Virus record (IMG/VR): IMGVR_UViG_3300003323_001359
Span: 1 to 64,000 of that record
Source of the DNA: a virus
Length of the DNA stretch: 64,000 nucleotides
Direction: 5' to 3' (one strand)
Below are positions 8,132-12,459 of this stretch, piece after piece. The notes under the pieces are model-generated. The model was not told the origin of the DNA and searched no databases. It worked only from the letters and a program-made list of their open reading frames with translations. The translations under genes and the position numbers were made by a program. How positions within the stretch are numbered: position 1 is the stretch's first letter; the number at the start of each line of letters is the position of its first letter.

Positions 8132-8574
8132 CCCTCGTACCCCGTCGCGAACGCGAACAGGGTCGCCAGGTTGACCATCGCGACCGGCTCGCCGTCCTGC
8201 CTGAGGACGACGTGCAGCTCCTCGTGGTTCTTGCCGGCGAGGTCCTCGTTCTGGATGCCCCAGAAGCCGGCGTTGTCGAAGCTCCTGCCGCGAACCTCGA
8301 CGGTGATCTCCCGCTCGTCCGGCTCGTGCCAGTCGTTCCGCAGCCCGAGCCGCGCCCGCAGCTCCTCCAGCTCGAACCGTCGGTGGATCATCTTGACGTC
8401 GGGCTGGACGAAGACCTCGAGCTCGCTCCGGAAGAAGCTGAAGGTGTCGTCCTCGACGTCGAGGTAGACCCGGTAGGACCCGTCCTCGAGAACCTTGACG
8501 ACCGTTCCCTTGCTGCCCTCCGACGGGCCTCGGGTGATCTTGACGCGGGTGCCGAGCTTCAGCTGCTCGCTCAT
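8128..8574 (-). CDS. KOW/SH3-like domain protein
   Basis: LKLGTRVKITRGPSEGSKGTVVKV matches the KOW motif. Confidence 0.65.
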   Translation of the reverse strand: MSEQLKLGTRVKITRGPSEGSKGTVVKVLEDGSYRVYLDVEDDTFSFFRSELEVFVQPDVKMIHRRFELEELRARLGLRNDWHEPDEREITVEVRGRSFDNAGFWGIQNEDLAGKNHEELHVVLRQDGEPVAMVNLATLFAFATGYEG

Positions 8575-8606
8575 CTGGTTCCTCGCTTCCTGGTTCAGGT
8601 TCTCGA

Positions 8607-8879
8607 TCAACGATCGAAGGTGACGGGGCCGTGGATGTCCCCGCCGGTCTGGTAGGCGGTGCCGGTGACCGGGCCGTTGATGGTGTTGTTGACCACGCGA
8701 CGGTTGGCGTGCGCCGCCACGAGCTCCGTCTCGAGGTGCTCGCTGACCGGCCTGCCGGAGCCGATCCACGCGACGTCGAAGACCTTGACTCCCTTGCGCT
8801 TGCCCTTGTAGCTGATGATGACGCCCAGGTGCTCTCGTCGGGCGTCGCTCTTGCGGTAGACCTTGTCCGCCTCGTCCAC
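8607..8879 (-). CDS. Small protein with a C-terminal BASS-like amyloid-motif sequence
   Basis: GTG 8879 after GAGAGGA; C-terminus VNNTINGPVTGTAYQTGGDIHGPVTFDR. Confidence 0.6.
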   Translation of the reverse strand: MDEADKVYRKSDARREHLGVIISYKGKRKGVKVFDVAWIGSGRPVSEHLETELVAAHANRRVVNNTINGPVTGTAYQTGGDIHGPVTFDR

Positions 8880-8915
8880 GCTCGTTCCTCTCATCCATCG
8901 CTCGTTGCTGGTGCA

Positions 8916-8944
8916 ACCGTACCACGTCCGCGGCAACTTGTAAA
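8916..8944 (-). promoter_or_regulatory. Promoter TTTACA-N17-TACGGT
   Basis: Exact spacing, same promoter family. Confidence 0.8.
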
Positions 8945-8969
8945 CACTGAAAGTTGTTGAGAAATACCC

Positions 8970-8999
8970 TGGACAACGCTCGGAGCTGCCTGGTACGGT
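8970..8999 (+). promoter_or_regulatory. Promoter of the tRNA/Y-RNA array, TGGACA-N18-TACGGT
   Basis: Divergent from the 8916 promoter, immediately 5' of the RNA cluster. Confidence 0.6.
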
Positions 9000-9034
9000 T
9001 TCACCATCACCGGTTGAACCCCGGTGGGTAGCAA

Positions 9035-9193
9035 GGGAACCTCCCGGTGCGAACGCACTCGGATACTTCAACCGGAACTCTGGGTTACGGGTTCGAGTCC
9101 CGTCGTCCCGACCTAGGTCGGGACGTGGCTCAACAGGCAGAGCAAGAGTCAGCAAGGACGCCGAGAGCGATCCCTGGTCTCGGGTAGGTTCTC
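9035..9193 (+). ncRNA. Y RNA-like 1 (YrlA-type, permuted tRNA-like domain, Pro-like acceptor)
   Basis: Terminal stem GGGAACCT-CCCG/CGGG-AGGTTCTC; GGTGCG...TACTTC...GGTCT motifs; internal order T arm, loop-closed acceptor (CGGGACG/CGTCCCG), D arm. Confidence 0.8.
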
Positions 9194-9195
9194 GA

Positions 9196-9268
9196 GGGTC
9201 TGTGGCGCAACTGGCAGCGCAGCCGTCTCCAACACGGAAGGTTCCAGGTTCGAGCCCTGGCGGGCCTG
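9196..9268 (+). tRNA. tRNA-Trp(CCA)
   Basis: Cloverleaf; anticodon loop CTCCAAC; T loop TTCGAGC. Confidence 0.9.
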
Positions 9269-9280
9269 CTTAGGAAACGA

Positions 9281-9351
9281 GCCCCACTGGTGTAACGGTA
9301 GCACCTCCGCCCCTCGAGCGGAGAGCGCCGGTTCGATCCCGGCGTGGGGTA
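9281..9351 (+). tRNA. tRNA-Glu(CTC), non-canonical C33/G37
   Basis: GCCCCAC/GTGGGGT acceptor; TCCGC-CCCTCGA-GCGGA. Confidence 0.85.
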
Positions 9352-9502
9352 CGGGGTGTCGGCACGACGGCGAACCCTGCGGAACGGTCCCGGGACCTCA
9401 CCCGCATCAGAGCTCGATGCGTAGCGAGCTTAAGCCAGGGGATGACCCGGCATCGTGCGTAGCGTGGAGAGGGAGGACCCGGTTCGATCCCGGGATGCCG
9501 GC
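9352..9502 (+). ncRNA. Unassigned structured RNA ending in a T arm plus acceptor-like stem
   Basis: CCCGG-TTCGATC-CCGGG followed by ATGCCGG pairing with CCGGCAT (9447-53); several upstream hairpins. Confidence 0.5.
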
Positions 9503-9569
9503 GCGACGTCCCGCACTCTGGGAGCCGGCAGAGGTGGTGTAGCTGGAGCACACCCTCTCAACGCGGCGA

Positions 9570-9644
9570 GGCTGTCTAGCTCAGTCAGGTTAGAGCACCG
9601 CCCTGATAAGGCGGGGGTCGGTGGTTCAAGTCCATCGGCAGCCA
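9570..9644 (+). tRNA. tRNA-Ile(GAT)
   Basis: Cloverleaf; CCGCC-CTGATAA-GGCGG. Confidence 0.92.
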
Positions 9645-9646
9645 CG

Positions 9647-9716
9647 GCGGGAAGTCGGGGGTTCGAGTCCCCTCACCTCCACCTCATGGGGGTGTACCTC
9701 AGCGGCAGAGGACCGC
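9647..9716 (+). ncRNA. Circularly permuted tRNA-Ala-like element (no anticodon loop)
   Basis: GCGG, variable region, T arm (GGGGG-TTCGAGT-CCCCT), CACCTCC-A, linker, GGGGGTG, D arm (CCTC/GAGG), CCGC; G3-U70 and A73 present. Confidence 0.7.
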
Positions 9717-9721
9717 GGCAA

Positions 9722-9793
9722 GCTGGTGTAGCTCAATGGGAGAGCGCTCCCCTGTCCAGGGAGAGGTCGCGGGTTCGATCCCCGTCTCCGGCG
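9722..9793 (+). tRNA. tRNA-Asp(GTC), non-canonical C37
   Basis: CTCCC-CTGTCCA-GGGAG; G73. Confidence 0.88.
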
Positions 9794-9818
9794 CGGGTGG
9801 CGAGTACGACGCCGCCAA

Positions 9819-9938
9819 GTTGAGATCGACAGACCGGGTCCGTCAGGTTCAACTCCTTGGCTGGACGCCGACCGTCTCGTACGCGGTTGAGGGTTCGATT
9901 CCCACCTGGTGGTAGGATCACGGTCGACAGATCTCAAC
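9819..9938 (+). ncRNA. Structured RNA with two T-loops and an anticodon-like hairpin
   Basis: GTTGAGATC/GATCTCAAC stem, GACA/GACA internal loop, GACCG/CGGTC stem; AGG-TTCAACT-CCT, ACCGT-CTCGTAC-GCGGT, GGG-TTCGATT-CCC. Confidence 0.65.
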
Positions 9939-9942
9939 GCTT

Positions 9943-10016
9943 GGCTGCCTAGCTCAGGTTGGCAGAGCGCCCGGTTGAAGCCCGGGAGGTCGCTGGTTCG
10001 AGGCCAGCGGTAGCCA
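9943..10016 (+). tRNA. tRNA-Phe(GAA), G37
   Basis: CCCGG-TTGAAGC-CCGGG; full cloverleaf. Confidence 0.9.
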
Positions 10017-10059
10017 CGAGCTTGACCCGTGCTTGCTGCACACTTGCGCGGTTCAAGCA

Positions 10060-10190
10060 TCACCTCGGTGCGAAGCTGAGCGGGTACTTCCTCGTGGAAT
10101 CGTGGGTTCGAATCCCATCGACCGGCGTGCCGGTCGTTCGCCGCAGCGGCCAAGCGGCATACCCCAACCAGCTGCCAGGTCTCGAGGTGA
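10060..10190 (+). ncRNA. Y RNA-like 2 (YrlA-type)
   Basis: TCACCTCG/CGAGGTGA stem; GTGCG, TACTTC, CAGGTCT; order T arm, closed acceptor, D-like arm. Confidence 0.8.
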
Positions 10191-10201
10191 CCACAACTTC
10201 A

Positions 10202-10349
10202 TCGTCGCGGTGCGCGCGTGAGCGGTTCCTTCACACAACCCTCGCAAGGTTGAGGTGTGGGTTCGAGTCCCACCGACCCCTCGGGGTCGTGGTGTAATCG
10301 GTAGCACGTTACTGAAGACAACACCGCCCATCATCAGGTCTCGCGACGA
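10202..10349 (+). ncRNA. Y RNA-like 3 carrying a complete permuted tRNA (anticodon CGC)
   Basis: TCGTCGCG/CGCGACGA stem; GTGCG, TCCTTC, CAGGTCT; anticodon arm CAACC-CTCGCAA-GGTTG, T arm, closed acceptor, D arm. Confidence 0.8.
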
Positions 10350-10369
10350 CCCACAACTACACACAGGCT

Positions 10370-10455
10370 TCGCCACGGTGCGAAGACCGGCGGATACTTC
10401 AATCGACTGTTAATCGGTAGCGAAACTCCGTCGGTCAGCTCAGGTCTCGTGGTGA
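10370..10455 (+). ncRNA. Y RNA-like 4 carrying only an Asn anticodon stem-loop
   Basis: TCGCCACG/CGTGGTGA stem; GACCGGCGGA/TCCGTCGGTC stem; TACTTC; ATCGA-CTGTTAA-TCGGT. Confidence 0.78.
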
Positions 10456-10457
10456 TC

Positions 10458-10558
10458 TCGTGAGCGACCGGGACGGTGCGCTGACGGACGGCTACTTCAA
10501 CGGCTGATGGTGAACACGCCGCCCGTCGCATCAGGTCTCGTCCCGGCCCAGCTCACGA
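10458..10558 (+). ncRNA. Y RNA-like 5 (minimal scaffold)
   Basis: CCGGGACG/CGTCCCGG stem plus outer TCGTGAGC/GCTCACGA; GTGCG, TACTTC, CAGGTCT. Confidence 0.75.
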
Positions 10559-10561
10559 CCC

Positions 10562-10635
10562 AGCGGGGTAGCGCAGCTCGGTAGCGCGATGGGCTCATAA
10601 CCCACAGGTCGCGGGTTCAAATCCCGTCCCCGCAA
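10562..10635 (+). tRNA. Initiator tRNA-fMet(CAT)
   Basis: 1:72 mismatch, three G-C pairs in the anticodon stem, loop CTCATAA. Confidence 0.92.
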
Positions 10636-10676
10636 CTCGGTCCCACGTTGACAGGCAGGCGACGGGGGACCGCCCA

Positions 10677-10716
10677 CGAGACCCCGATCACGCCCCGACG
10701 CGTGATCGGGGTCTCG
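10677..10716 (+). terminator. Perfect 17-bp hairpin between the RNA array and Ro60
   Basis: CGAGACCCCGATCACGC/GCGTGATCGGGGTCTCG. Confidence 0.65.
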
Positions 10717-10746
10717 CTCTGTCTGACGAGGAAGGAGCTAGGAACG

Positions 10747-12459
10747 ATGGCAGGATTCAACAAGGTGTCGGCTCAGCCGCGACGGCTGGCGGCCAGCGGG
10801 CCGCTGCGCACCGTGAGCGACGTCTCGGACACCGTCACCCACGAGAGCGCTCCCGGCTTCCAGCGCGACGCGCAGTCCGAGCTGTTCCTGCGCGCGACCA
10901 CGCGCTTCGTCGGTGAGAGGGCCTTCTACGAGACCGCGGACGCCGGTACCGACCGGCTGCGTGAGCTCGTGAGCCAGCTCGCCGTCGACGACGAGACGTG
11001 GCCGTGGGTGCGGGTCTTCCTCTCGTGGCTGCGCGGTCCGGGCAACATCCGCACCGCGTCGATCCTGCTCGCCGCGGAGGCCGTGCACTCGCGGCTCGCG
11101 GCCGGCAAGCTGGGAGACGGCAACCGTGAGCTGATCACATCGGTGCTGCAGCGACCGGACGAGCCGGGTGAGATGATCGCCTACTGGCGACACCGGTTCG
11201 GGGTCAAGCGGAGCGACGGCACGATCATCGTCCGCCTGCCGAAGCCGGTCAAGCGCGGCATCGCCGACGCCGCCACGCGGCTCTACGACGAGGCCGCGTT
11301 CCTGCGCTACGACGGCGAGGGCAAGGCGGTCCGGATCGGTGACGTGCTGGAGCTGACCCACGCCGACGTCCGCGTCTCGAGCGAGGAGCGCACCTGGCAA
11401 GACGACGTGTTCCGGTGGGCGATCACCGCGCGTCGAGGCCGCGACGCGGAGCCCCCGGAGTCCCTGACCCGGATCCACCTGCGGCACGTCCTGTCCCGGT
11501 ACGAGCCCGACCAGCGCCACGCGCTCGCGAGGAGCGCGCTCGACGGCAGCCAGGTCTCCCTGGACCTGATCCACGGCGCGATGGCCGGTCAGTGGGAGTG
11601 GCTCAAGCCGTGGCTCGGTGAGCGACCGACCGAGGTGACGCCCCTGACCGACGCCGAGATCTGGCAGCTCGCGCTGCCGACCATGGGGTACATGGCCCTG
11701 CTTCGCAACCTGCGGAACCTGGACCAGGCCGGCGTCCCGGATCCCGTGGTCGCGCCGGTGATCGCGCGCCTCGCCGACCCGGAGCAGGTCGCGAGGAGCC
11801 GTCAGCTGCCGTTCCGGCTCTGGTCCGCGTACCAGGAGGTCTCGTCCCTGCGGTGGGGCCACGCCCTGGAGCAGGCCCTGAACCACTCGCTGCGGAACGT
11901 GCCGGTCCTCGATGGCCGGACGCTCGTGCTCGTCGACGTCTCGGACTCGATGACGTGGGGCAAGCTGTCCGGGAGCTCCAAGATGGACTACGCGACCGCG
12001 GCCGCGATCTTCGGTCTCGCGCTGAAGATCCGCAACCCGGGAGGCGTCGACCTGTGGGGCTTCGCGAACCAGCAGTTCCACGTCACCGGCGTCGACGCCG
12101 GCTCGAGCCTGCTTCGGATGGTTGAGGCGTTCCGTCGGCAGCAGGGACGGGTCGGCGGCGGCACCGAGATCGCCCGGGCGATCCGGGAGACGCTGCGAGA
12201 CGACCACGCCCGCGTGATCATCCTCACCGACATGCAGACGTTCGGTGGGAACCACTGGCAGGTCGGTGACGTCGACACCGCCGCGCCGCGGGACATCCCG
12301 ATCTACGCGTTCAACGTCGCCGGCTACAAGAGCTCGGCGATGCCGGTTCAGCTGGGCAACAACCGTCACGAGCTCGGTGGCCTCACTGACGCGACGTTCG
12401 GCCTGATCCGGATCCTTGAGGCTGGGCAGGCAGGGCGGTGGCCGTGGGAGCTGAGCTGA
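10747..12459 (+). CDS. Ro60/TROVE-domain RNA-binding protein with C-terminal vWA domain
   Basis: RDAQSELF, LQRPDEPGE, PKPVKRGIADA, DVLELTH, MGYMALLRNLRN, SRQLPFR, vWA MIDAS DVSDSM, GGTEI, IILTDMQ; ATG 10747 after GAAGGAG. Confidence 0.93.
   Translation: MAGFNKVSAQPRRLAASGPLRTVSDVSDTVTHESAPGFQRDAQSELFLRATTRFVGERAFYETADAGTDRLRELVSQLAVDDETWPWVRVFLSWLRGPGNIRTASILLAAEAVHSRLAAGKLGDGNRELITSVLQRPDEPGEMIAYWRHRFGVKRSDGTIIVRLPKPVKRGIADAATRLYDEAAFLRYDGEGKAVRIGDVLELTHADVRVSSEERTWQDDVFRWAITARRGRDAEPPESLTRIHLRHVLSRYEPDQRHALARSALDGSQVSLDLIHGAMAGQWEWLKPWLGERPTEVTPLTDAEIWQLALPTMGYMALLRNLRNLDQAGVPDPVVAPVIARLADPEQVARSRQLPFRLWSAYQEVSSLRWGHALEQALNHSLRNVPVLDGRTLVLVDVSDSMTWGKLSGSSKMDYATAAAIFGLALKIRNPGGVDLWGFANQQFHVTGVDAGSSLLRMVEAFRRQQGRVGGGTEIARAIRETLRDDHARVIILTDMQTFGGNHWQVGDVDTAAPRDIPIYAFNVAGYKSSAMPVQLGNNRHELGGLTDATFGLIRILEAGQAGRWPWELS

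What the first reader, a model, noticed from the sequence alone, without database searches (positions are those of the whole stretch)
10236..10308. Complete permuted tRNA (all four arms) nested inside Y RNA 3
Seen: anticodon arm, variable region, T arm, acceptor closed by a TC linker, then D arm, so the permutation point is between the D and anticodon arms. In RNAs 1 and 2 the scaffold replaces the anticodon arm; here the anticodon is kept. The CGC anticodon is Ala but there is no G3-U70 and the acceptor is sealed, so it should be a non-chargeable full L-shaped mimic that could engage the A site or ACNases (inference).
Basis: partly seen in the sequence, partly recalled or inferred. Interest (0 to 1): 0.7.

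Follow-up and report, generated by a model that had tools for sequence, protein, structure and literature searches.

The report
Phage Y RNA carrying a whole permuted tRNA
One of five Ro60-partner "Y RNAs" of a soil actinophage carries a circularly permuted tRNA look-alike with all four arms, and its anticodon-like hairpin recurs in hundreds of phage and actinobacterial Y RNAs, where the literature files it as a minor "variable" stem-loop.

Summary
10236-10308 reads 5'->3' as anticodon-type arm (5 bp, 7-nt loop CUCGCAA), 4-nt variable loop, T arm, acceptor hairpin, U8-G9, D arm, G26. It lies inside a 147-nt YrlA-class Y RNA (10202-10349), 400 nt upstream of a phage Ro60 gene.

The fold is not chance. 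Orthologues show compensatory changes in every helix, and RNAalifold finds the same arms without constraint.

The hairpin is not unique to this RNA. Among 272 distinct relatives next to Ro60 genes, 171 carry it and 157 of those have a 7-nt loop. The loop has Y32, U33, R37 and A38, and positions 34-36 vary freely. It is always followed by a 4-5-nt linker whose last base covaries with D-loop position 15.

The hairpin is the same element as the published "V" stem-loop of YrlA (Chen 2014). It behaves like an anticodon arm, not a variable arm.

"Sealed, non-chargeable" is uncertain. The 7-bp stem plus UC matches M. smegmatis YrlA, which RNase P opens and which then gains CA.

Function, most likely a Ro60-tethered bait or decoy for anticodon-loop-reading factors, is inferred only. 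This is a new variant of a known kind.

The parts
10202..10209 (+). P1 terminal stem, 5' strand (UCGUCGCG), pairs with 10342-10349
   Evidence: MFE fold. RNAalifold predicts it with compensatory changes. Helix 1 is 97.8% paired, with all 8 pairs covarying.
10210..10216 (+). 5' Ro60-binding-type motif GUGCGCG. The family consensus is GGUGCGAAGG, compared with GGUCCGA in metazoan Y RNA.
   Evidence: Column frequencies of A4. The motif is described in PMC4201824. Binding to Ro60 is inferred, not tested.
10222..10226 (+). P2 scaffold helix, 5' strand GCGGU, pairs with ACCGC 10323-10327
   Evidence: Compensatory change U-A to C-G in L102. Helix 2 is 81% paired, with all pairs covarying.
10229..10233 (+). 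Possible P3 linker helix CUUCA, pairing with UGAAG 10313-10317. It overlaps the conserved UACUUC (YUAY) motif.
   Evidence: Weak support: 75% paired, and absent or gapped in about half of relatives.
10236..10252 (+). Anticodon-type arm: stem CAACC/GGUUG, 7-nt loop CUCGCAA (triplet CGC)
10253..10256 (+). Class-I-type variable loop AGGU (A44, G45, G46, U48)
   Evidence: U48 matches A15. Across 71 relatives, 15/48 is A/U in 34, G/C in 32, and other in 5.
10257..10273 (+). T arm GUGGG-UUCGAGU-CCCAC
   Evidence: cmscan tRNA partial hit at 27.7 bits. YrlA model hit 10256-10307 at 27.1 bits. Covariation.
10274..10289 (+). Acceptor-like hairpin CGACCCC-UC-GGGGUCG. It is 6 bp plus a CUCG loop when closed, and 7 bp if cut between 10282 and 10283.
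   Evidence: Compensatory A-U to U-A change in L102 and L104. Covariation.
10290..10308 (+). U8-G9, D arm GUGU-AAUCGGUA-GCAC, G26
10335..10349 (+). 3' scaffold motif CAGGUCU (family consensus UUGAUCU), followed by the P1 3' strand CGCGACGA
10747..12459 (+). Ro60 orthologue (TROVE plus vWA-like), the presumed protein partner
   Evidence: Pfam TROVE, 1.8e-12. PHROG RNA-binding protein. 3426 homologues.
9033..9196 (+). Y RNA 1. The scaffold helix ACUCU/AGAGU takes the anticodon-stem position, and there is no hairpin.
   Evidence: Rfam YrlA at 33.6 bits. R1 hit at 50 bits.
10058..10192 (+). Y RNA 2. The scaffold helix GGGUA/UACCC lies next to the D arm, and a 4-bp/4-nt variable-arm hairpin is present.
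   Evidence: The MFE fold gives this cloverleaf.
10363..10459 (+). Y RNA 4. The same scaffold is capped only by an anticodon-type stem-loop, AUCGA-CUGUUAA-UCGGU.
   Evidence: MFE fold. R1 hit.
10461..10554 (+). Y RNA 5. Scaffold with a short cap.
   Evidence: R1 hit at 30.7 bits. Fold.

Best explanation
RNA 3 (10202-10349, + strand) is a YrlA-class Y RNA of an actinophage. A Ro60-binding scaffold (terminal stem P1, GUGCG opposite CAGGUCU, helix P2) carries a complete, circularly permuted tRNA-like domain. Unlike Salmonella YrlA, where the scaffold helix itself stands in for the anticodon stem and there is no anticodon loop, this RNA forms the anticodon stem in cis as a 5-bp hairpin with a 7-nt U-turn-type loop. 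The scaffold leaves the tRNA body between positions 26 and 27 through short linkers (CA on the 5' side, UUAC on the 3' side). Shown here: the arms, their covariation, and their wide conservation. Inferred: the RNA is made within the tRNA/Y-RNA cluster transcript and is bound by the phage Ro60. It presents a full tRNA shape, including an anticodon loop, to tRNA-recognising factors, so that Ro60 is tethered to them or they are titrated. The most likely targets read anticodon loops: host anticodon nucleases or modification enzymes. This would fit the free variation of triplet 34-36 between close relatives while the loop frame stays fixed. The acceptor may be opened by host RNase P and extended with CA, as in M. 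smegmatis YrlA.
For: Anatomy read directly from the sequence. The re-ordered sequence is called a tRNA, against 0 of 3000 shuffles. Rfam partial hits: tRNA model positions 10-63 at 27.7 bits, and YrlA model positions 30-81 at 27.1 bits. For comparison, the Bxz1 relative of the published phage ET08 YrlA scores only 32.5 bits. Orthologues with 76-79% Ro identity keep AC stem and variable loop identical, while the loop reads CUCGCAA, CUCGUAA or CUGAUUA. They show compensatory changes in the T, acceptor and P2 helices. RNAalifold on 11 unconstrained sequences predicts P1, AC, T, acceptor and D helices, with all 5 AC pairs compensated. On the CM alignment of 137 distinct RNAs, 93.4% of cells pair versus 62% after shuffling, and the AC helix is 94% paired. 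In phage and metagenome loci, 90 of 137 have the hairpin and 80 of those have a 7-nt loop: C32 84%, U33 97.5%, R37 90%, A38 96%, 35 different triplets, variable loop always 4-5 nt. In 80 cellular actinobacterial loci, 81 of 135 have the hairpin and 77 have a 7-nt loop with the same signature. A model-free census found 79 of 213 modules with a stem of at least 5 bp and a 7-nt loop, against 45 of 1065 at random positions. The last linker base covaries with D-loop position 15 (A/U 34, G/C 32, other 5), so the linker is a 44-48 loop and the hairpin ends at position 43. Where the hairpin is absent, the scaffold helix starts about 1 nt after the D stem. Where it is present, the scaffold is displaced by several nucleotides. 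RNA 4 carries the same kind of stem-loop with no tRNA body. The Ro60 gene lies 400 nt downstream on the same strand.
Against: There is no expression, processing, Ro60-binding or 3D data, and no RNA run was available. The CM alignment is fitted to my structure. The alignment is independent but covers only 11 sequences. P3 is weakly supported. The Rfam YrlA gathering score (69 bits) is not reached. Y3's 5' motif is GUGCGCG rather than the family's GUGCGAAG. The MFE of the whole RNA does not form the T or D arms, as is usual for tRNA. The z-score is only -2.2. Sequence alone cannot show whether the hairpin stacks under the D stem. Pseudo-anticodons show no relation to neighbouring phage tRNAs (10 of 40 versus 10.0 expected), which gives no help to any specific decoy model.
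Confidence: 0.75

Rival explanations
1. This is the published reading. The hairpin is the tRNA variable arm ('V' stem-loop of YrlA), the scaffold helix (P3/P2) is the anticodon-stem equivalent, and the domain mimics a class II tRNA without an anticodon loop.
For: Chen 2014 models the fourth stem-loop upstream of T as V (PMC4201824). RNA 2 of this phage fits that model well. In 3D the UUAC/UUAC region could extend the scaffold helix up to the D stem, as in the kinked stem of the Salmonella structure (10.1101/312249).
Against: The loop is 7 nt in 157 of 171 hairpins and has a U33/R37/A38 frame. By general knowledge of tRNA, variable-arm loops are 3-5 nt and have no such frame. Another 3-4 nt lie between the hairpin and the base that covaries as N48. 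Short-loop hairpins instead sit 2 nt from the T stem. The scaffold is displaced from the D stem when the hairpin is present.
Confidence: 0.15
2. The acceptor is not sealed in vivo. Host RNase P cuts between 10282 and 10283 and the CCA enzyme adds CA. This gives a two-piece, CCA-tailed, four-armed tRNA held together by base pairing and still attached to the Ro scaffold. This reading is compatible with the main explanation but contradicts 'sealed'.
For: M. smegmatis YrlA is about 147 nt with a 7-bp acceptor. It is found as 82-nt and 65-nt halves with added CA, and M1 RNA cuts it in vitro. Y3 is 147 nt, would give 80-nt and 67-nt halves, has a 7-bp stem, and has exactly U-C in the loop. The C-UC-G junction is kept in L102, L104 and L008.
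Against: L099/L100 has only 6 bp plus a CUC loop. Many relatives have acceptor stems of 8-12 bp, which the authors consider poor RNase P substrates. There are no end-mapping data.
Confidence: 0.35
3. It is a true permuted tRNA gene. The scaffold is removed, the ends are joined and the acceptor is opened, giving a working tRNA that reads GCG.
For: All conserved tRNA core bases are present. A polynucleotide-kinase-type phosphatase gene lies downstream.
Against: The record has no RtcB or RNA ligase. There is no G3-U70 or A73 for AlaRS. The scaffold is the conserved part shared by five RNAs and hundreds of relatives, and it carries Ro-type motifs. The triplet changes between close relatives. By general knowledge, no bacterial pathway for maturing permuted tRNAs is known.
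Confidence: 0.02
4. The hairpin is an evolutionary leftover of a tandem-tRNA ancestor and has no present role, or it is a chance hairpin.
For: The dimeric-tRNA origin model for YrlA (10.1101/312249). cmscan also sees a D-arm-like hairpin at 10218-10234 just upstream.
Against: Stem covariation and loop-frame conservation hold across Ro proteins only about 40% identical, in both phages and cells. The random-position control is 4% against 37% observed.
Confidence: 0.03

Closest known systems
YrlA (Y RNA-like A), Rfam RF02553; Chen et al. 2014 (PMC4201824); Wang et al. 2018 (10.1101/312249, PDB 6CU1)
   Same: Encoded just upstream of a Ro60 orthologue on the same strand. A 5' Ro-type motif near a terminal stem. 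T arm, closed acceptor-like hairpin and D arm in that order. Levitt 15:48 covariation. Actinobacterial and mycobacteriophage members have a fourth stem-loop upstream of T.
   Different: The solved Salmonella YrlA 'lacks the anticodon loop', and its scaffold helix is the anticodon stem. Here the fourth stem-loop is a 5-bp/7-nt anticodon-type arm followed by a class-I variable loop, and the scaffold is displaced. The D arm (GUGU...GCAC) differs from the near-invariant YrlA D arm (GCUC...GAGC). The Rfam score is below the gathering score.
M. smegmatis YrlA
   Same: About 147 nt, with a 7-bp acceptor stem. The loop supplies the discriminator and C74. It is bound by Rsr and encoded upstream of it together with other Y RNAs.
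   Different: Its cleavage and CA addition were shown experimentally. For Y3 they are only inferred. Its sequence could not be fetched here, so a hairpin-by-hairpin comparison was not made.
D. radiodurans Yrn1
   Same: A Ro-bound Y RNA with a T arm and a modelled 'anticodon arm' with a 5-bp stem.
   Different: The Yrn1 loop is 6 nt, the D arm is doubtful, the orientation of the arms is different, and the authors consider it an independent lineage.
Circularly permuted tRNA genes (Cyanidioschyzon type) and two-piece permuted tmRNA (Rfam tmRNA_permuted)
   Same: The 3' half is encoded before the 5' half. The acceptor strands are joined by a short linker that processing can open.
   Different: Those genes mature into functional tRNA or tmRNA. 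Here the break is at 26/27 and is occupied by a conserved protein-binding scaffold, with no sign of excision. The features of those two systems are recalled from general knowledge.

Membership tests
YrlA / bacterial Y RNA | Encoded within about 4 kb of a Ro60 (TROVE) gene on the same strand | tested here: met
   Y3 ends at 10349 and Ro60 starts at 10747, both on the + strand.
YrlA / bacterial Y RNA | 5' motif GNCGAAN0-1G (resembling GGUCCGA) next to a terminal stem | tested here: inconclusive
   Y3 has GGUGCGCG. Its sisters and the family consensus have GGUGCGAAGG. It is close to the published motif but not identical.
YrlA / bacterial Y RNA | T arm, closed acceptor-like stem-loop and D arm in that order, with tRNA core bases and 15:48 covariation | tested here: met
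YrlA / bacterial Y RNA | Reaches the Rfam RF02553 gathering score (69 bits) | tested here: not met
   27.1 bits, partial. Accepted-type relatives also fail: Bxz1 scores 32.5 and Streptosporangium 41.4 and 39.5. The threshold therefore does not discriminate in this clade.
YrlA / bacterial Y RNA | Bound and stabilised by Ro60/Rsr | not testable with these tools
   This needs immunoprecipitation.
tRNA (RF00005) | Linear order acceptor-D-anticodon-variable-T-acceptor, with free 5' and 3' ends at the acceptor | tested here: not met
   The order is permuted. ARAGORN finds no tRNA here in the native sequence. cmscan gives 27.7 bits, below 29, for positions 10-63 only.
tRNA (RF00005) | Four arms with canonical sizes and core bases (U8, A14, R15:Y48, G18G19, U33, R37, G53-C61, T-loop) | tested here: met
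   The re-ordered sequence is called a tRNA.
tRNA-Ala | G3-U70 and A73 identity elements | tested here: not met
   It has G3-C70, and the base after the 3' strand is U.
Permuted tRNA genes that mature to tRNA | Removal of the sequence at the permutation point and joining of the ends | not tested
   No ligase was found in the record, but the record is only about 70% complete, and no RNA data exist.

The most novel reading that the evidence does not exclude
Actinobacterial and actinophage YrlA RNAs form a family of Ro60-mounted, full-length tRNA mimics. Each displays an anticodon loop with a fixed U-turn frame and a freely exchangeable triplet. Arrays of them (five in this phage, two to four in cellular loci) would act as a panel of baits, decoys or sensors for anticodon-specific nucleases or modification enzymes. 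This would link Ro60/Y RNA biology directly to tRNA-targeting conflict between phages and hosts.
Probability: 0.2. Interest if true: 0.8.

Novelty: new variant of a known kind. Interest (0 to 1): 0.55.

Why it matters
What the tRNA-like domain of bacterial Y RNAs does remains an open question. The only solved example lacks an anticodon loop, so attention has gone to the tRNA elbow. Most actinobacterial and actinophage relatives turn out to keep a strict anticodon-loop frame with a variable triplet. That makes a concrete hypothesis testable: the partner reads anticodon loops. It also fits the proposal that YrlA came from tRNA. There are two practical consequences. ARAGORN calls these RNAs as tRNAs in phage genomes, for example 'tRNA-Ser(gct)' beside the Ro gene of phage LuckySocke. 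And the Rfam YrlA threshold misses the whole actinobacterial branch.

Tried and rejected
The IMG/VR alignment scan supplied orthologues instead.
- The first genome-contig scan with the single protein found nothing, and alignment A1 was too diverse. Alignment A5 worked.
- No RNA holder was listed for this stretch, so no reads were laid and nothing can be said on expression or ends.
- The promoter/terminator scan of 8500-10900 found nothing, which is uninformative for an actinophage.
- ARAGORN on the re-ordered sequence was rejected as a test of the AC arm, because it still calls a tRNA after the AC arm is shuffled.
- The MFE of the 73-nt and 151-nt pieces does not give the cloverleaf. This is expected for tRNA-like RNAs and was not used.
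- Pseudo-anticodons compared with tRNAs encoded nearby showed no association.
- The linker-length heuristic for short-loop hairpins had too few cases.
- RtcB and RNA-ligase families are absent from the 78-kb record, but the record is incomplete.
- The M. smegmatis YrlA sequence could not be retrieved. Bxz1 was used as a stand-in for the published phage ET08 RNA. Its hairpin is only 3 bp, with the 7-nt loop AUUGCAA.
- The phiLo Ro60 paper (PMC12135203) contains nothing on tRNA-like RNAs.

Full report
**Setting.** The window is a 64-kb part of a 77.9-kb IMG/VR viral record. It is high in G+C and its relatives are actinophages. Between 9030 and 10640 on the + strand lie six ordinary tRNA genes: Trp, Glu, Ile, Asp, Phe and Met. 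Interleaved with them are RNAs that ARAGORN does not call but that contain T-loop motifs. Thirteen GGTTCRANNCC motifs fall in 1.6 kb, against two in the other 62 kb. Five of these RNAs share a scaffold of a terminal stem, GUGCG(A) opposite C(A/U)GGUCU, a second helix, and a CGG-N-UACUUC motif. Their coordinates are 9033-9196, about 10058-10192, 10202-10349, 10363-10459 and 10461-10554. A Ro60 orthologue with a TROVE domain and a vWA-like domain starts at 10747. After it come a phosphatase domain of the polynucleotide-kinase type, an Rpf-like protein and the terminase. The finding concerns the third scaffold RNA.

**Check of the observation.** The coordinates are exact. Read 5' to 3', 10236-10308 contains these parts:
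- a 5-bp stem CAACC/GGUUG with the 7-nt loop CUCGCAA (10236-10252);
- AGGU (10253-10256);
- the T arm GUGGG-UUCGAGU-CCCAC (10257-10273);
- CGACCCC, UC, GGGGUCG (10274-10289);
- U and G (10290-10291);
- the D arm GUGU-AAUCGGUA-GCAC (10292-10307);
- G (10308).

In tRNA numbering this supplies U8, A14, A15 with U48, G18 G19, A21, G26 with A44, C32, U33, A37, A38, and G53-C61. G3 pairs with C70, not U70. When the 5' part (10283-10308) is put in front of 10236-10282, ARAGORN calls tRNA-Ala(cgc). None of 3000 dinucleotide shuffles is called. That call persists in 2427 of 3000 trials in which only the 17-nt anticodon arm is shuffled. It therefore certifies the other three arms and the spacing, not the anticodon arm. 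Rfam gives two complementary partial hits: tRNA model positions 10-63 at 27.7 bits and YrlA model positions 30-81 at 27.1 bits. One structural correction is needed. A 2-nt loop cannot close a 7-bp helix, so the uncut form is 6 bp plus a CUCG tetraloop.

**Comparative evidence for Y3 itself.** Scans with Ro60 alignments brought in 160 phage and metagenome loci and 80 cellular actinobacterial loci. Five IMG/VR contigs, whose Ro proteins are 76-79% identical to this one, carry clear orthologues of Y3. In the alignment the anticodon stem and AGGU are identical, but the loop reads CUCGCAA here, CUCGUAA in L099/L100, and CUGAUUA in L101/L102/L104. C32, U33 and A38 stay fixed while positions 34-37 change. 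The T stem, the acceptor stem (A-U to U-A) and helix P2 (U-A to C-G) show compensatory changes. A more distant orthologue, L008, changes two anticodon-stem pairs on both sides (UCACC/GGUGA). RNAalifold was run without constraint on a MAFFT alignment of 11 members of this subfamily. It predicts P1, the anticodon hairpin, and the T, acceptor and D helices. All five anticodon-stem pairs show changes on both sides, in 3-6 sequences each.

**The hairpin across the whole family.** A covariance model built from the five-sequence alignment finds full-length matches next to almost every Ro60 gene. On the 137 distinct phage and metagenome rows:
- 93.4% of cells pair, versus 62% after shuffling and 42-50% after sliding the partner strand.
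- The anticodon helix is 94% paired, and every one of its pairs covaries. This alignment is fitted to the model, so it leans towards the structure.
- 90 rows have the hairpin, and 80 of those have a loop of exactly 7 nt.
- The loop has C32 in 84%, U33 in 97.5%, a purine at 37 in 90%, and A38 in 96%. There are 35 different triplets at positions 34-36.
- The linker to the T stem is always 4 or 5 nt.

In cellular Streptosporangiales, Streptomyces and relatives the numbers are 81 of 135 with the hairpin, and 77 of those with a 7-nt loop and the same frame. A model-free census was also made. It required only a T arm, a closed hairpin directly after it, and a D arm. It found 213 distinct modules, 211 of them on the Ro strand. 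A perfect stem of at least 5 bp with a 7-nt loop occurred in 79 of them, against 45 of 1065 at random positions. The loop-base preferences were not part of that search.

**Anticodon arm or variable arm?** Chen et al. [quoted passage not shown] Wang et al. (2018) state that Salmonella YrlA 'lacks the anticodon loop'. Y3's hairpin is that same element. Four observations favour calling it an anticodon arm.
- The 7-nt loop and its U33/R37/A38 frame match an anticodon loop.
- 3-4 further nucleotides follow the hairpin before the base that covaries with D-loop position 15 (A/U 34, G/C 32, other 5 of 71). The linker is therefore a 44-48 loop, and the hairpin ends at position 43.
- In relatives without the hairpin, the scaffold helix starts about 1 nt after the D stem and ends 0-2 nt before the variable loop. 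In relatives with it, the scaffold is displaced by several nucleotides on both sides. In Y3 the displacement is CA on the 5' side and G-UUAC on the 3' side.
- This phage shows both designs side by side. RNA 2 folds with the scaffold helix next to the D arm and a 4-bp/4-nt hairpin 2 nt from the T stem, which is a genuine variable-arm design. RNA 4 carries a 5-bp/7-nt CUGUUAA stem-loop with no tRNA body at all.

Sequence cannot decide whether the hairpin really stacks under the D stem in 3D. I give the published variable-arm reading about 15%.

**Is the acceptor sealed?** M. smegmatis YrlA is about 147 nt with a 7-bp acceptor. It is recovered with Rsr as 82-nt and 65-nt halves. The 3' half begins at the RNase P site, and the 5' half carries an added CA. 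Y3 is 147 nt, would split into 80-nt and 67-nt halves, has a potential 7-bp stem, and has exactly U-C between the strands. One cut plus CA would give U73-CCA. I therefore treat 'sealed' as unproven and give roughly one chance in three that it is opened. Charging by AlaRS is unlikely without G3-U70 and A73, by established identity rules. Entry into the ribosomal A site is doubtful with a Ro-bound stem at the hinge. Both points are inference.

**Function.** Nothing here tests function. The anatomy fits the accepted Y RNA logic, in which one module binds Ro60 and the other binds an effector. Hughes et al. (2020) suggested that the YrlA tRNA-like domain might competitively inhibit an anticodon nuclease. 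A family that keeps the anticodon-loop frame and lets the triplet vary makes that idea, or tethering of Ro60 to an anticodon-loop-reading enzyme, more specific and testable. The triplets show no relation to the tRNAs encoded nearby. The record has a healing-type phosphatase but no RtcB or RNA ligase. No RNA-seq run holds the locus.

**Verdict.** The element is a new phage member of the YrlA family that represents a widespread but so far mislabelled variant: a Y RNA with a complete permuted tRNA, including an anticodon-type arm.

Noticed in passing
L012:2762-2922 (Streptomyces phage LuckySocke, OR725497.1 gene 36): The feature annotated as tRNA-Ser(gct), 74 nt long and directly upstream of the Ro-like gene, is a full-length match to the Y3-type model (72.8 bits). 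It has a closed acceptor hairpin and a second D arm after the T arm. ARAGORN likewise of the 79 hairpin-bearing modules in my census as tRNAs, so these Y RNAs are probably mis-annotated as tRNAs in actinophage genomes.
   Followed up: partly
L259:1852-1928, L181:1042-1158 and 1360-1420, window 9056-9170: The Rfam YrlA model (gathering score 69 bits) scores every actinobacterial and actinophage YrlA examined at only 27-41 bits. This includes mycobacteriophage Bxz1, a relative of the published ET08 example. The whole branch is invisible at the curated threshold.
   Followed up: partly
window 10363-10459: Y RNA 4 is the Ro-type scaffold capped only by an anticodon-type stem-loop, AUCGA-CUGUUAA-UCGGU (triplet GUU). 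It has no T arm, D arm or acceptor arm.
   Followed up: partly
window 9650-9714: This is a stand-alone permuted tRNA-like body between tRNA-Ile and tRNA-Asp, with no Ro scaffold. It has a T arm, an acceptor hairpin CACCUCC-ACCUCAU-GGGGGUG (G3-U70; the loop starts ACC), a D arm, and ends at a 4-bp GCGG/CCGC stem. Rfam gives YrlA 27.8 bits and permuted tmRNA 29.4 bits, both partial hits.
   Followed up: no
window 9352-9569 and 9795-9942: Two further gaps between tRNA genes hold T-loop hairpins, at 9481 and at 9846 and 9892. They belong neither to tRNAs nor to scaffold RNAs. Their structure was not worked out.
   Followed up: no
window 10350-10353: The terminal stem of Y3 is followed by C-CCA, and this trailer is conserved in the orthologues L099-L104 (CCCACAAC). 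It might mimic an acceptor end or act as a processing signal.
   Followed up: no
A4 columns 26-34 and 340-347 (family consensus): The family consensus next to the terminal stem is 5' GGUGCGAAGG opposite 3' UUGAUCU. It resembles both strands of the metazoan Ro-binding helix (GGUCCGA / UUGACUA). Earlier work reported that only the 5' strand is recognisable in the Salmonella and M. smegmatis RNAs.
   Followed up: partly
L179-L258 (cellular Streptosporangiales, Streptomyces, Micromonosporales): Cellular actinobacteria carry tandem arrays of two to four Y3-type RNAs directly upstream of their Ro gene. The paralogues usually have different loop triplets.
   Followed up: partly
MH744418.1 (Streptomyces phage JustBecause) about 84778-86454: In this phage the Ro-like gene lies next to an annotated RNA ligase. 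This Ro and RNA-repair pairing is absent from the present record, which has only a phosphatase domain.
   Followed up: no
L012:4967-5199: A manA RNA match at 47.8 bits (gathering score 55.2) lies between two tRNA-Lys genes, downstream of the Ro gene of LuckySocke.
   Followed up: no
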